64,000 nucleotides of DNA, from assembly GCF_057098645.1 (NCBI RefSeq), contig NZ_CM169472.1; one strand, given 5' to 3'. Below, one piece after another: positions 1 through 3,000 of the stretch. The first letter of the stretch is position 1. Each line of letters starts with the position of its first letter. The position numbers are program-made.

Positions 1-3000
1 CCGAAGGCTCCAGCGGCCAGGTTTCCAGTTTCCTTGATGGCGGTAACCCGTTCCGCTTCTGGCTGCTGGAAATCTTCAACGGCAATATCATCGCCATTGG
101 TCTGGTGCCGGTTATCGCCCTGGTGCTGTATGGCATTTTCCGAATGACGCGGAGCACGGTTTATGCCTGATAACAGCGCAGCTATCGTTATCGATATTGG
201 CACCACCAATTGCAAAGTCACCTGCTTTTCCTGCCTGGACGCAACGACGTTGGGCGCGCATAAATTCGTGACGGCAAAGCAGATCTCCCCACAGGGCGAT
301 GTCGATTTCGATATCGACGCCCTCTGGCAGGAGGTCCGCCAGGCGATAGCGCAACTGAACGCCGCTTCGCCGCTGCCAGTCAGACGGATCAGCATTGCCA
401 GTTTTGGCGAATCAGGCGTGTTCCTTGACGAGCATGGCGAGATCCTGACGCCAATGCTGGCATGGTATGACCGTCGCGGTGAAGAGTATCTGGCAACGCT
501 TAGCGAGGCAGACAGTGCGGCACTTTATGACATCTGCGGTCTACCACTACACAGCAATTACTCTGCCTTCAAAATACGCTGGTTGCTGGAACATTACCCG
601 CTGCGTAATCGCCGCGGCCTGCGCTGGCTACATGCGCCGGAAGTGCTGCTCTGGCGGCTGACTGGCGAACAGCGCACGGATATCACCTTAGCCAGCCGCA
701 CGCTGTGTCTGGACGTGCGCAAAGGCGAATGGTCAGCGAAAGCGGCGGCGTTGTTACACGTTCCCTGTACGGCATTTGCGCCATTGGTGCAGCCAGGCGA
801 GCACGCCGGATGGGTCAGCGAGTCACTTTGCAAGACACTTGGGTTCTCGCAACCGGTCAGCGTGACGCTGGCCGGACATGACCATATGGTGGGTGCGCGA
901 GCGTTGCAGATGATGCCAGGCGATATCCTTAACTCGACGGGGACCACGGAAGGCATTCTGCAACTGGATACACAACCGACGCTGGATGAACAGGCTAAGC
1001 GTGACAAGCTGGCAAACGGCTGTTACTCACTTGCCAACCAGTTCACCCTGTTTGCGTCGCTGCCCGTGGGCGGTTTCGCGCTGGAGTGGCTGCGCAACAC
1101 GTTCCGGCTAACCGATGAGGAGATCGCCGCATCACTTACTCGCGGACATGCTGATTATCTGGCGGGGAATTGGTTGCTCGATGACATTCCCGTCTTTATT
1201 CCACATCTTCGCGGTTCGGGTTCGCCCTATAAAAATCGCCATACCCGTGGATTATTTTATGGGCTTGGCGATACGTTAAGTATCGACATGTTAATTGCCA
1301 GCGTATCACTGGGATTAACCATTGAATTTGCCAACTGCTTCGCCTGTTTTAACGTGCCTGGCACCAGCGCGTTAAAAGTGATCGGTCCGGCAACCCATAA
1401 TCCTCTTTGGCTGCAATTAAAGGCGGATATTTTACAGCGTCCGGTTGAAGCAATTGCATTTAACGAGGCGGTTTCTGTCGGAGCATTATTAACCGCCGCA
1501 CCGGATATTCCACCGCCGCCAGTCGCTATAGCCCAACGTTTGTTACCGAATCGGGCGAGATACCATCAATTACAGCGTTATCAGCACAAATGGAAAAGCT
1601 GGTATCAGTTGAAATTACAACAAGAAGGCGTGATGCCATTACATCATCGGGAGGAACACTATGTTGAATAAAACCGTGGAGGTCAGAAACAGTACTGGCC
1701 TGCATGCACGTCCGGCGGCCTGTCTGGCGAAAGCCGCCAAAAAATATAGCTGTAAAGTGACGCTGCACTATGAGGGTAATGATATTAATGCCACCAGCAT
1801 GATGAATATTATGCGCGCCGGAATAAAAGGCGGAAAAACGGTGGAAATACGCTGCGACGGTGATGATGAAAACGAGGCAATACAGACTCTCACCGACTTA
1901 TTTCGCGACCGCTTCGGTGAAGATGAATAATTAACTGATATTAAAAGATGAGGTTTTCAATATGCCATTAGTTAATGGACGGATACTGCTCGACCGCATT
2001 CAGGAAAAACGGGTATTAGCGGGCGCATTTAATACCACCAATCTGGAGACGACAATTTCAATTTTAAACGCTATTGAGCGTTCGGGATTACCCAACTTCA
2101 TTCAGATTGCGCCAACCAATGCACAACTGTCGGGATACGATTACATATATGAAATCGTGAAACGTCACGCCGATAAAATGGATGTTCCGGTCAGTCTTCA
2201 TCTGGATCACGGGAAAACCCAGGAGGATGTTAAACAGGCGGTGCGCGCGGGCTTTACCTCGGTCATGATTGACGGTGCCGCATTCTCTTTTGAAGAGAAT
2301 ATCGCTTTCACCCAGGAAGCTGTCGATTTCTGTAAATCCTATGGCGTACCGGTTGAAGCGGAGCTGGGGGCGATTCTCGGCAAAGAAGATGATCACGTCA
2401 GCGAAGCCGATTGCAAAACGGAACCGGAAAAGGTGAAGACCTTTGTCGAGCGTACCGGTTGCGACATGCTGGCAGTTTCTATTGGCAACGTTCATGGCCT
2501 GGACGATATACCGCGTATCGATATCCCCCTGCTGAAGCGCATTGCCGAAGTCTGTCCGGTGCCGTTGGTTATTCACGGCGGCTCCGGTATCGCCCCGGAG
2601 ATATTACGCAGCTTTGTTAATTATCGCGTCGCTAAAGTAAATATCGCCAGCGATCTGCGCAAAGCGTTTATCACCGCCGTCGGCAAAGCGTATGTGAATA
2701 ATCACAACGAGGCGAATCTGGCACGAGTCATGGCATCAGCAAAAAACGCCGTTGAGGAAGATGTGTATAGCAAAATCCTGATGATGAATGAGGGGCATCG
2801 GTTGGTTAGAAAGGCATCTTAAGAGCCACAAAAATATAGCGGCGCAACAGAAATTGTTGGGCCGCTATAAGTTATAAATGATTCAAACGCTCATTCAGTG
2901 TTTCAATAATATAGGTATTAACAGAGACTTGTTGCTGCGCAGCCGCATTATTAAGGCGTTCACTCAGCGATTCTGGATAGCGTAACGTAAAGGTCTTAAT

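What the first reader, a model, noticed from the sequence alone, without database searches (positions are those of the whole stretch)
1661..1930. Dedicated HPr paralog translationally coupled to an ATP-dependent kinase
An 89 aa HPr-family protein with the His15 motif (GLHARPAA) is embedded between an FGGY kinase and an aldolase, not next to PTS enzyme I or II genes in this window. HPr paralogs in such positions usually act as regulators or dedicated phosphocarriers. HPr is known to bind and regulate at least one FGGY kinase (LsrK), so this pair could be a regulatory couple. That is inference only. The serine typically found near position 46 in HPr-kinase substrates was not assessed confidently.
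Basis: inference. Interest (0 to 1): 0.45.

Follow-up and report, generated by a model that had tools for sequence, protein, structure and literature searches.

The report
Private HPr of an accessory sugar-uptake operon
The small HPr-like gene is real, but it is the last link of a complete sugar-import (PTS) operon that starts just outside the window, so it is most likely that operon's own phosphate carrier rather than a special regulator of the neighbouring kinase.

Summary
The ORF at 1661-1930 (+) is a genuine 89-aa HPr: PF00381 E=3e-29, His15/Arg17 motif, and an AF2 model with TM 0.96 to a solved HPr. It overlaps the FGGY kinase gene by 11 nt.

The impression that it has no PTS partners is a window-edge artefact. 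Bases 3-170 encode the C-terminus of a Gat-family EIIC. In the source genome (E. coli O145, 100% match) the operon is GntR-EIIA-EIIB-EIIC-FGGY-HPr-aldolase, between nikR and hicBA/yhhJ. It lies in 1637 of 5426 complete E. coli genomes, and 5425 of the 5426 carry ptsHI.

Across 37 enterobacterial homologous operons, HPr is always present. It sits next to the aldolase in 30 and next to the kinase in 7. Ten kinase+aldolase clusters without a PTS have no HPr. The closest HPr relatives sit in other Gat-family PTS operons that have no FGGY kinase.

The best reading is therefore an operon-encoded phosphocarrier (EI -> HPr His15 -> EIIA His67 -> EIIB Cys9), analogous to FPr. An LsrK-like regulatory couple is not supported but not excluded.

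The island is already annotated and noted in the literature (Salmonella STM3779-3785; EDL933 Z4875-Z4879), with substrate unknown. Interest is low to moderate.

The parts
1..170 (+). 3' end (last 55 codons plus stop) of the Gat-family PTS EIIC gene. The rest of the gene, with the EIIB, EIIA and GntR regulator genes, lies upstream of the window.
   Evidence: Translation of 3-170. RefSeq annotation of the 100%-identical genome, L001 10812-12170. TIGR00827 EIIC-GAT scores 476 bits, below the 542-bit cut-off.
163..1671 (+). FGGY-family carbohydrate kinase, 502 aa, specificity unknown. Its start overlaps the EIIC stop by 8 nt.
   Evidence: PF00370 E=1.4e-44 and PF02782 E=3.7e-23. No NCBIfam equivalog cut-off is reached; the best is XylB at 144 bits against 380. 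The EIIC-kinase junction (a small overlap in most loci, short gaps in some) recurs across phyla.
1650..1654 (+). GGAGG Shine-Dalgarno for the HPr gene, inside the end of the kinase gene.
   Evidence: Read directly from the sequence. Its function is inferred.
1661..1930 (+). Stand-alone HPr paralog, 89 aa, with His15, Arg17, Lys24, Lys27 and Ser46. It overlaps the kinase gene by 11 nt.
1962..2822 (+). Class II ketose-bisphosphate aldolase, 286 aa, the last gene of the operon.
   Evidence: PF01116 E=3.2e-81. NF005943 scores 557 bits against a cut-off of 364.
2835..2869 (.). Strong hairpin between the convergent aldolase and hicB genes, probably the end of the operon transcript.
   Evidence: RNA fold gives -22.9 kcal/mol, z = -5.8, with 0 of 200 shuffles as stable. 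The simple terminator scan did not flag it because there is no T-run, so a terminator role is inferred.

Best explanation
The gene encodes an operon-private phosphocarrier for an accessory Gat-family PTS.

Proposed relay: PEP charges the general enzyme I (PtsI, encoded elsewhere). EI~P phosphorylates this HPr on His15. HPr~P passes the phosphoryl group to the operon's EIIA (His67 in an AIPH motif), then to EIIB (Cys9), then to an unknown sugar entering through EIIC.

Proposed catabolism: the FGGY kinase adds a second phosphate, and the class II aldolase splits the resulting ketose bisphosphate. The GntR/UTRA protein is the probable repressor.

The HPr is made only when the operon is on, as FPr is for fructose. 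It gives this horizontally acquired system its own, Firmicute-like carrier instead of depending on PtsH. The 11-nt overlap with the kinase gene reflects tight operon packing, not a functional pairing.

Shown here: gene content, catalytic residues, fold, conservation, co-occurrence patterns, and published co-induction. Inferred: every phosphotransfer step, the kinase and aldolase reactions, and why a private HPr is needed.
For: 1. Complete relay in one operon. EIIA, EIIB, EIIC, kinase, HPr and aldolase are tightly spaced or overlapping on one strand. Promoter-like and terminator-like consensus sites inside the operon are no more frequent than in shuffled sequence. The residues HPr His15/Arg17, EIIA AIPH67 and EIIB Cys9 are present.

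2. Canonical HPr. PF00381 E=3e-29. The AF2 model has pLDDT 96.2 and a beta-alpha-beta-beta-alpha-beta-alpha fold. It matches T. tengcongensis HPr at TM 0.96 and E. coli HPr at TM 0.87. G13, His15, Ala16, Arg17, Pro18 and Ala19 are invariant in 25 operon HPrs.

3. HPr tracks the PTS, not the kinase.
- 37 of 37 enterobacterial operons have HPr.
- It is adjacent to the aldolase in 30 and to the kinase in 7.
- 0 of 10 actinobacterial aldolase+kinase clusters without a PTS have HPr.

4. The five nearest non-operon HPrs share the NJ clade with the operon HPrs. The three found on contigs long enough to show their neighbourhood (P0187, P0188, P0201) lie in other EIIA_2-IIB-EIIC_GAT operons with Aldolase_II, Fe-ADH or Dak1/Dak2 and no FGGY kinase. 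The other two were on contigs of about 1 kb, P0237 directly after a Dak2 gene.

5. The same HPr type (68% identity) serves two operon families whose kinases are 37% and whose EIIAs are 29% identical. HPr distances correlate best with aldolase distances (r=0.66) and less with the kinase (0.39).

6. Purifying selection acts on the gene: dN/dS is 0.14 against Citrobacter and 0.18-0.54 within Escherichia.

7. Expression. In EDL933, Z4875-Z4877 (EIIA/B/C) and Z4879 ('phosphocarrier protein') are co-induced with log2FC 2.1-3.8 in bovine digestive contents versus M9-glucose (PMC6199705).

8. Helix-1 Lys24 and Lys27 are kept as in PtsH and unlike NPr. From established knowledge of the EI-HPr complex, this fits charging by sugar-branch EI.
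Against: - No biochemical data exist for any step.
- PtsH is present in 5425 of the 5426 complete E. coli genomes. It is known to serve other EIIA_2-family systems (GatA, MtlA), so why a private HPr is needed is unexplained.
- HPr is the fastest-evolving gene of the operon: 48% identity between E. coli and Salmonella, against 83-89% for EIIB, EIIC, aldolase and GntR. It also has the highest dN/dS.
- Frameshifted alleles lacking His15 exist, for example P0161 on 55 contigs. This fits partial redundancy.
- Within the E. coli-type lineage (Escherichia, Citrobacter amalonaticus, Enterobacter cancerogenus, Pantoea sp.), the kinase-HPr overlap is conserved. A lineage-specific link to the kinase is therefore not excluded.
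- EIIA, HPr and the kinase are the three fast-evolving components. This could also be read as co-evolution.
Confidence: 0.68

Rival explanations
1. Regulatory couple. The HPr paralog binds the adjacent FGGY kinase, as PtsH binds and inhibits LsrK, or phosphorylates it, as HPr~P activates Firmicute GlpK. The second phosphorylation step would then be gated by PTS state, and phosphotransfer to EIIA would be secondary or absent.
For: - The genes overlap by 11 nt.
- The overlap is kept in the E. coli-type lineage, 7 loci from several genera.
- A Paenibacillus operon also has kinase-HPr adjacency (L052).
- HPr binding to an FGGY kinase has a precedent in LsrK/HPr, with HPr L47/F48 sitting in a hydrophobic pocket (PMC5983913). 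This HPr has hydrophobic M47/M48.
- The kinase, EIIA and HPr are the fast-evolving genes.
Against: - 30 of 37 enterobacterial operons place HPr after the aldolase.
- Most non-enterobacterial PTS+kinase operons (33 of 37) and all 10 non-PTS kinase clusters lack an HPr gene within the 8-kb flanks fetched.
- Close HPr relatives occur in Gat-PTS operons without any FGGY kinase.
- One HPr type (68% identity) accompanies kinases that are only 37% identical.
- At the aligned LsrK pocket positions, L152 becomes Arg/Lys and Y162 becomes variable polar residues. Kinases with and without an operon HPr show no difference (the alignment has low identity, so this is weak evidence).
- No His lies at the position expected for a GlpK-type phosphorylation loop. 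This rests on the sequence plus my own recollection of GlpK numbering.
Confidence: 0.08
2. Redundant passenger. The HPr gene was carried along with a horizontally acquired operon. It works as an ordinary HPr but adds nothing that PtsH does not already provide, and it is slowly decaying in E. coli.
For: - It has the highest dN/dS in the operon (0.14-0.54 against 0.00-0.07 for the GntR, EIIB, EIIC, kinase and aldolase genes).
- It has the lowest cross-genus identity.
- Frameshift alleles without His15 exist in some assemblies.
- PtsH is present in 5425 of 5426 complete genomes.
Against: - It is retained in 37 of 37 enterobacterial operons of two divergent operon families, despite gene-order rearrangements.
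- dN/dS is still well below 1.
- The catalytic motif is invariant.
- It is intact in O145, O157:H7 and APEC O1.
- It is transcribed and induced with the EII genes.
Confidence: 0.14
3. Dual role. The protein is the operon's phosphocarrier, and its phosphorylation state also signals to another operon protein (the kinase or the GntR/UTRA regulator).
For: General HPr has many such second jobs, including LsrK, Rsd, FruR and glycogen phosphorylase complexes in the PDB list. Relatives of this HPr lie next to PRD regulators and Dak1/Dak2 kinases, which are known PTS targets.
Against: There is no direct evidence. The regulator here is a GntR type, not a PRD type.
Confidence: 0.1

Closest known systems
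FPr, the HPr-like domain of FruB in the fructose PTS of E. coli and Salmonella
   Same: It is an operon-encoded, substrate-induced HPr-type carrier that serves one PTS of the EIIA_2 (fructose/mannitol/galactitol) superfamily alongside the general PtsH. It is the best functional analogy.
   Different: FPr is fused to an EIIA-Fru domain, whereas this protein is a stand-alone 89-aa HPr. It scores only 59.9 bits against the FruB model, whose cut-off is 302.
General HPr (PtsH) of E. coli
   Same: Same fold and the same His15/Arg17 active site, with Lys24 and Lys27 kept.
   Different: Identity is 31%. The PRK10850 model scores 50.6 bits against a cut-off of 153. The gene is closer to Firmicute HPrs (3LE1 at 79 bits against 44 bits for E. 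coli HPr). It is accessory, present in 30% of genomes, and lies in a catabolic operon rather than with ptsI-crr.
Salmonella island STM3779-STM3785 and E. coli EDL933 Z4875-Z4879 / probably CFT073 c4276-c4280
   Same: It is an orthologous operon: GntR, EIIA, EIIB, EIIC, FGGY kinase, aldolase and HPr. The literature describes it as a complete PTS of unknown specificity, AT-rich and H-NS-repressed (PMC3604774; PMC2831201; PMC6199705). The equation of c4276-c4280 (listed as a galactitol-specific PTS) with this locus is inferred, not checked.
   Different: In Salmonella the order is kinase-aldolase-HPr. That HPr is only 48% identical and has Gly at position 46.
LsrK-HPr complex (PDB 5YA0 family)
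   Same: An FGGY kinase and an HPr are involved. HPr positions 47 and 48 are hydrophobic.
   Different: LsrK is regulated by the general HPr, not by an operon paralog. The pocket residues are not clearly conserved here, and the gene association of this HPr is with the PTS rather than the kinase.
Galactitol system GatABC-GatD-GatYZ
   Same: It is a Gat-family EIIA/B/C plus a class II ketose-bisphosphate aldolase. The logic is a sugar phosphate converted to a bisphosphate and then to trioses.
   Different: The gat system uses PtsH and phosphofructokinase and has a dehydrogenase. Here there is an FGGY kinase, no dehydrogenase and a private HPr. EIIA, EIIB and EIIC all score below the galactitol equivalog or subfamily cut-offs, so 'galactitol-specific' is not justified.
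NPr (PtsO)
   Same: It is a stand-alone HPr paralog of similar length with an acidic G-F-D/G-E C-terminus.
   Different: The NPr model scores 50.6 bits against a cut-off of 119. Helix 1 lacks NPr's substitutions at positions 24 and 27. The gene is not in the rpoN operon.

Membership tests
HPr family (PF00381 / TIGR01003) | Profile match above the curated cut-off | tested here: met
   PF00381 scores 101.3 bits against 23. TIGR01003 scores 103.3 bits against 47.9.
HPr family (PF00381 / TIGR01003) | Active-site His15 with Arg17 in the G-[LIM]-H-[AT]-R-P-A motif | tested here: met
   The motif is G13 L H15 A R17 P A A. These positions are invariant in the 25-sequence alignment A2.
HPr family (PF00381 / TIGR01003) | Open-faced beta-sandwich fold, beta-alpha-beta-beta-alpha-beta-alpha | tested here: met
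   The AF2 model has pLDDT 96.2 and the expected secondary-structure order. Foldseek gives TM 0.96 to 3LFG and 0.87 to 1POH.
HPr family (PF00381 / TIGR01003) | Phosphorylated by enzyme I on His15 and donates to an EIIA | not testable with these tools
   This needs a [32P]PEP phosphotransfer assay.
General HPr PtsH (NF008104 equivalog) | Equivalog score and ptsH-ptsI-crr context | tested here: not met
   It scores 50.6 bits against a cut-off of 153. The true ptsHI-crr locus is elsewhere and present in 5425 of 5426 genomes.
NPr (PtsO, NF008146) | Equivalog score | tested here: not met
   It scores 50.6 bits against a cut-off of 119.
FPr (FruB, NF008319) | HPr domain fused to EIIA-Fru, plus equivalog score | tested here: not met
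   The ORF is a stand-alone 89 aa. It scores 59.9 bits against a cut-off of 302.
HprK/P-controlled HPr (Ser46 phosphorylation) | Conserved Ser46 and an HprK/P in the genome | tested here: inconclusive
   Ser46 is present in the E. coli-type protein but is Gly in the Salmonella-type and group-2 orthologues. Absence of HprK/P from E. coli is established knowledge and was not tested here.
LsrK/HPr-type kinase-regulator pair | Conserved genomic association of the HPr with the FGGY kinase | tested here: not met
   HPr is adjacent to the kinase in 7 of 37 enterobacterial operons. No HPr gene was found within the 8-kb flanks of 33 of 37 other PTS+kinase operons or of any of 10 non-PTS kinase clusters. 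Close HPr relatives occur in operons without an FGGY kinase.
LsrK/HPr-type kinase-regulator pair | Hydrophobic HPr-binding pocket of LsrK (L123, I148, L151, L152, A155, Y162, M210, A211) conserved in the kinase | tested here: inconclusive
   The aligned positions are L, A, I, R, L, N, L, L, so two of the eight are charged or polar. The same pattern appears in kinases from operons without HPr. The alignment is at about 20% identity (residues from PMC5983913).
LsrK/HPr-type kinase-regulator pair | Physical binding and inhibition of the kinase by unphosphorylated HPr | not testable with these tools
   This needs pull-down or ITC experiments and kinase assays.
Gat-family PTS (EIIA_2 / PTS_IIB / EIIC-GAT) | All three EII components with catalytic His (EIIA) and Cys (EIIB) | tested here: met
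   Orthologous operons carry PF00359, PF02302 and PF03611. EIIA has AIPH67 and EIIB has Cys9.
Galactitol-specific PTS (GatABC equivalogs) | Scores above the NCBIfam cut-offs for GatA, GatB and EIIC-GAT | tested here: not met
   GatA scores 57 against 139, GatB 60 against 95, and TIGR00827 476 against 542.

The most novel reading that the evidence does not exclude
Enterobacterales may carry a distinct lineage of stand-alone, Firmicute-like HPr proteins that travel only with horizontally acquired Gat-family PTS operons. These operons pair the PTS with an FGGY kinase plus class II aldolase, or with Aldolase_II plus Fe-ADH, or with Aldolase_II plus DhaK/DhaL. The lineage would exist because the enteric PtsH cannot properly charge these foreign EIIAs or their regulators and kinases. 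That would make it an insulated private phosphorelay branch. In the E. coli-type sublineage, which is translationally coupled to the kinase, it might additionally gate the FGGY kinase.
Probability: 0.2. Interest if true: 0.5.

Novelty: new member of a known kind. Interest (0 to 1): 0.25.

Why it matters
If the private-carrier reading is right, this is one more case, like FPr, where a sugar-specific PTS brings its own HPr. That is useful for annotation: the operon should not be called galactitol-specific, and the HPr is not a general regulator. It also matters for understanding how horizontally acquired PTS operons are plugged into a host phosphorelay.

The operon is in about 30% of complete E. 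coli genomes, including O157:H7, O145 and APEC O1. A gene set that probably corresponds to it is listed for the uropathogenic strain CFT073. It is induced in bovine gut contents. It was also gained by the ancestor of Salmonella enterica subspecies I. Its unknown substrate may therefore matter for gut colonisation.

The HPr gene itself is not surprising to a PTS specialist.

Tried and rejected
1. Kinase-HPr fusion. A 594-aa top hit with a C-terminal HPr domain (P0181) looked like a possible Rosetta-stone fusion. Its sequence is a Sel1-repeat protein with two HPr domains, not a kinase.

2. HPr as phosphoryl donor to the kinase. The kinase subfamily replaces the canonical FGGY 'GGG[AS]' adenosine motif with 'VIGP[AS]xxNPLWLQLKAD'. 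I considered a PTS-dependent, DhaKLM-like kinase. The same motif occurs in actinobacterial members that have no PTS and no HPr, so this was rejected.

3. Independent recruitment of the two HPr subtypes. The E. coli type and the Salmonella type are only 49% identical, about as far apart as either is from some Firmicute HPrs. A neighbour-joining tree of 191 HPrs nevertheless puts all operon HPrs in one 42-leaf clade. There was no bootstrap and the protein is short, so this is left open.

4. Mirror-tree correlation within group 1. It does not discriminate between partners: the kinase gives 0.78, EIIC 0.77, aldolase 0.63 and EIIA 0.62.

5. Literature searches. Searches by locus tags and keywords found no functional characterisation of the operon or its HPr.

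6. Scans around the gene. The Rfam scan of 1-4000 found nothing. The promoter and terminator scans found nothing above chance.

7. Structure prediction of fused kinase-HPr or EIIA-HPr constructs was not run, because the tool returns no inter-domain metric or coordinates.
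Full report
**What is in the sequence**

The window matches the chromosome of E. coli O145 strain RM9872 at 100%. The ORF at 1661-1930 (+) starts with ATG and encodes 89 aa.
- It matches Pfam PTS-HPr at E=3e-29 and TIGR01003 at 103 bits.
- It carries the catalytic motif G13-L-H15-A-R17-P-A-A.
- An AlphaFold2 model built on 25 orthologues has mean pLDDT 96.2 and the canonical beta-alpha-beta-beta-alpha-beta-alpha order.
- The model superposes on solved HPrs at TM 0.96 (Thermoanaerobacter tengcongensis, 43% identity) and TM 0.87 (E. 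coli HPr, 32% identity).
- The upstream FGGY kinase ORF (163-1671; PF00370 and PF02782) ends at 1671, so the two genes overlap by 11 nt. A GGAGG motif lies 6 nt before the HPr ATG.
- A class II aldolase gene follows at 1962-2822. A strong hairpin at 2835-2869 (-22.9 kcal/mol, z = -5.8) separates it from the convergent hicB gene.

The window begins 170 nt before the end of a gene. Bases 3-170 translate to the C-terminal 55 residues of a membrane protein. In the source genome this protein is a 452-aa Gat-family EIIC whose stop overlaps the kinase start by 8 nt.

The full unit lies between nikR and hicBA/yhhJ. It reads GntR/UTRA regulator, EIIA, EIIB, EIIC, FGGY kinase, HPr, class II aldolase.
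- EIIA has the AIPH67 active-site motif and EIIB has Cys9.
- Promoter-like and terminator-like consensus sites inside the unit are no more frequent than in shuffled sequence.
- No Rfam family matches.
- The rest of the 64-kb window has no other PTS gene.
- The operon contains no enzyme I gene.

**Distribution**

The operon is a single-copy chromosomal accessory island in 1637 of 5426 complete E. coli genomes, including O157:H7 and APEC O1. The general ptsH-ptsI pair is in 5425 of 5426. The gene is therefore an extra paralog. It is only 31% identical to PtsH. By sequence it is closer to Firmicute HPrs: 79 bits to 3LE1 and about 60 bits to Bacillus HPr, against 44 bits to E. coli HPr and 37.5 bits to NPr. 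It reaches none of the NCBIfam equivalog cut-offs for PtsH, NPr or FruB.

**Comparative genomics of the operon**

I collected kinase homologues and looked at their contexts. I then scanned one genome per species with a kinase alignment and annotated 88 loci with my own ORF and phmmer pipeline.

Enterobacterales:

| Operon family | Loci | Gene order | Representatives |
|---|---|---|---|
| Group 1 (kinase 60-98% identical) | 5 | R-A-B-C-K-HPr-Ald | Escherichia, Citrobacter amalonaticus |
| Group 1 | 2 | R-Ald-A-B-C-K-HPr | Enterobacter cancerogenus, a Pantoea |
| Group 1 | 16 | R-A-B-C-K-Ald-HPr | Salmonella, Klebsiella oxytoca, Sodalis, Cedecea, Rahnella and others |
| Group 2 (kinase about 37% identical) | 14 | A-B-C-K-(ADH)-R-Ald-HPr | Pantoea rwandensis, Raoultella, Erwinia |

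All 37 enterobacterial operons contain an HPr. It is next to the kinase in 7 and next to the aldolase in 30.

Outside Enterobacterales:
- The same PTS+kinase+aldolase module occurs in Enterococcus, Listeria, lactobacilli, Selenomonadales, Coriobacteriia and Gilliamella.
- The EIIC-kinase junction there is likewise tight, a small overlap in most loci and a short gap in some.
- Only 4 of these 37 loci have an HPr within 8 kb.
- Ten actinobacterial loci have the aldolase with two to four FGGY kinases, no PTS and no HPr.

**The HPr lineage itself**

An exhaustive search of 1.84 billion representative proteins and a neighbour-joining tree place all operon HPrs in one clade with five other proteins.
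- Three of these lie in other EIIA_2-IIB-EIIC_GAT operons that have no FGGY kinase. P0187 has a PRD regulator, an Aldolase_II and an Fe-ADH. P0188 has Aldolase_II plus Dak1/Dak2. P0201 has Aldolase_II, with Dak2/Dak1 convergent downstream.
- The other two (P0182, P0237) were found only on contigs of about 1 kb. P0237 follows a Dak2 gene there.

In every context long enough to read, the common denominator of the lineage is a Gat-family EII set.

Component identities tell the same story.

| Component | Salmonella-type vs group 2 (% identity) |
|---|---|
| HPr | 68 |
| Aldolase | 84 |
| GntR | 68 |
| EIIC | 54 |
| EIIB | 47 |
| Kinase | 37 |
| EIIA | 29 |

Across all enterobacterial loci, HPr distances correlate best with aldolase distances (r=0.66) and less with the kinase (0.39). 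One HPr type thus serves operons with very different kinases and EIIAs. It is inherited together with its usual neighbour, the aldolase.

**Selection and expression**

Against C. amalonaticus, dN/dS is 0.14 for HPr and 0.01-0.05 for the GntR, EIIB, EIIC, kinase and aldolase genes. The EIIA value could not be estimated because dS was saturated. Within Escherichia, dN/dS is 0.18-0.54 for HPr and 0.05-0.31 for EIIA (small counts). The gene is therefore constrained, but it is the least constrained of the operon. E. coli and Salmonella HPr are only 48% identical, while EIIB, EIIC, aldolase and GntR are 83-89% identical. Frameshifted alleles that lack His15 exist in some assemblies.

In EHEC EDL933, Z4875-Z4877 (EIIA/B/C) and Z4879 ('phosphocarrier protein') are induced together in bovine rumen, small-intestine and rectum contents relative to M9-glucose (PMC6199705). 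The equation of Z4879 with this gene rests on gene order and is an inference.

**Test of the LsrK analogy**

In the LsrK/HPr co-crystal, HPr F48 and L47 sit in a pocket formed by L123, I148, L151, L152, A155, Y162, M210 and A211 (PMC5983913). This HPr has M47 and M48, as Gram-positive HPrs have I47 and M48. In an alignment of LsrK with 17 kinases of this family, the pocket positions read L, A, I, R, L, N, L, L in E. coli. Position 152 is Arg or Lys in 11 of the 17 kinases, and position 162 is variable. Kinases from operons with and without HPr show no difference. The alignment is at low identity, so this is weak, inconclusive evidence.

**Most likely mechanism**

The gene most likely encodes the operon's own phosphocarrier. 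The relay would run PEP -> PtsI -> HPr His15 -> EIIA His67 -> EIIB Cys9 -> sugar. The FGGY kinase would then make a bisphosphate, and the class II aldolase would cleave it.

Two observations support the second-phosphorylation idea indirectly.
- Actinobacterial relatives replace the PTS with additional FGGY kinases next to the same aldolase.
- Group-2 operons add Zn-dependent dehydrogenases, as a polyol version of the same route would need.

All catalytic steps are inferred. The closest functional analogue is FPr of the fructose PTS. I put 0.68 on this explanation. The alternatives are a redundant passenger (0.14), a carrier with an additional signalling role (0.10) and a pure regulator of the kinase (0.08).

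Why enterobacterial versions always carry an HPr while Firmicute versions rarely do is unexplained. The very high cross-phylum identity of EIIC (77% E. coli vs Enterococcus), the Firmicute-like HPr and the mosaic GC content suggest horizontal acquisition. A compatible carrier may then be needed in the new host.

**Novelty**

RefSeq already annotates the gene as 'HPr family phosphocarrier protein'. The orthologous Salmonella island STM3779-3785 is described as a complete PTS of unknown specificity, AT-rich and H-NS-repressed, gained by the ancestor of subspecies enterica (PMC3604774). A CFT073 gene set, c4276-c4280, is listed as a galactitol-type PTS and probably corresponds to this locus, though that was not checked (PMC2831201). 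I found no functional study.

The finding is a correct observation of an ordinary, uncharacterised member of a known kind. The regulatory-couple interpretation is not supported.

Noticed in passing
window 163-1671; L001-L088 kinases: This FGGY subfamily has 'VIGP[AS]xxNPLWLQLKAD' (some members VIGAA or VIGSA) where FGGY kinases normally have a GGG[AS] adenosine-binding motif (the canonical motif is from my own recollection). It also has a GHDHM catalytic-region motif like FucK/RhaB. ATP dependence and substrate are unverified.
   Followed up: partly
L001 9000-15000 (operon), window 1-2822: The operon is a mosaic. GC is 40-46% in the GntR gene, 42% in EIIB, 57-59% in the 5' two thirds of the kinase and 46-49% in HPr and aldolase. 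Against Enterococcus, E. coli EIIC is 77% identical, EIIB 65% and aldolase 70%, but EIIA is only 42% and the kinase 38%.
   Followed up: partly
L065, L067, L069, L071, L079, L080, L082, L085, L087, L088: Actinobacterial relatives have the same aldolase next to two to four FGGY kinases and a GntR regulator, with no PTS. This suggests a two-kinase route to a ketose bisphosphate that the PTS replaces in other phyla.
   Followed up: no
L095 7284-9267, L096 475-2458, L099 85-1012: Close relatives of this HPr lie directly after two-subunit Dak1/Dak2 (DhaK/DhaL) genes. In the two longer loci these sit in Gat-family PTS operons with no DhaM (EIIA-Man) gene nearby. This is an odd arrangement for a PTS-dependent dihydroxyacetone kinase.
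   Followed up: no
proteins P0161, P0146, P0135, P0175 (E. coli assemblies): Frameshifted or N-terminally truncated alleles of this HPr lack His15. P0161 was seen on 55 contigs of up to 3.8 Mb. The gene is intact in O145, O157:H7 Xuzhou21 and APEC O1.
   Followed up: partly
window 2872-3503 (-): A hicB/hicA toxin-antitoxin pair sits between the operon and yhhJ in O145 and O157:H7 but is absent at this position in APEC O1.
   Followed up: no
L007/L041, L048, L049, L053, L059-L061, L063, L073, L076-L078, L083, L084: A second enterobacterial operon family has the order A-B-C-K-ADH-GntR-Ald-HPr. In the one locus with Pfam calls (L007, Pantoea rwandensis) SurE and a second Zn-ADH follow. It shares aldolase (84%) and HPr (68%) with the Salmonella-type operon, but its EIIA (29%) and kinase (37%) are distinct. 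This looks like module shuffling.
   Followed up: partly
protein P0181: A 594-aa protein has Sel1-like repeats followed by two tandem HPr domains, each with an intact His15 motif.
   Followed up: no
window 8865-12423 (-): There are two adjacent large paralogous ORFs (540 and 458 aa). The first is annotated yhiJ and both are annotated as DUF4049 proteins. They lie downstream of yhiI.
   Followed up: no
L001 10812-12170 and RefSeq names: RefSeq calls the EIIC 'PTS galactitol transporter subunit IIC'. EIIA, EIIB and EIIC all score below the NCBIfam galactitol cut-offs (57 against 139, 60 against 95, 476 against 542). The substrate name is therefore not supported.
   Followed up: yes
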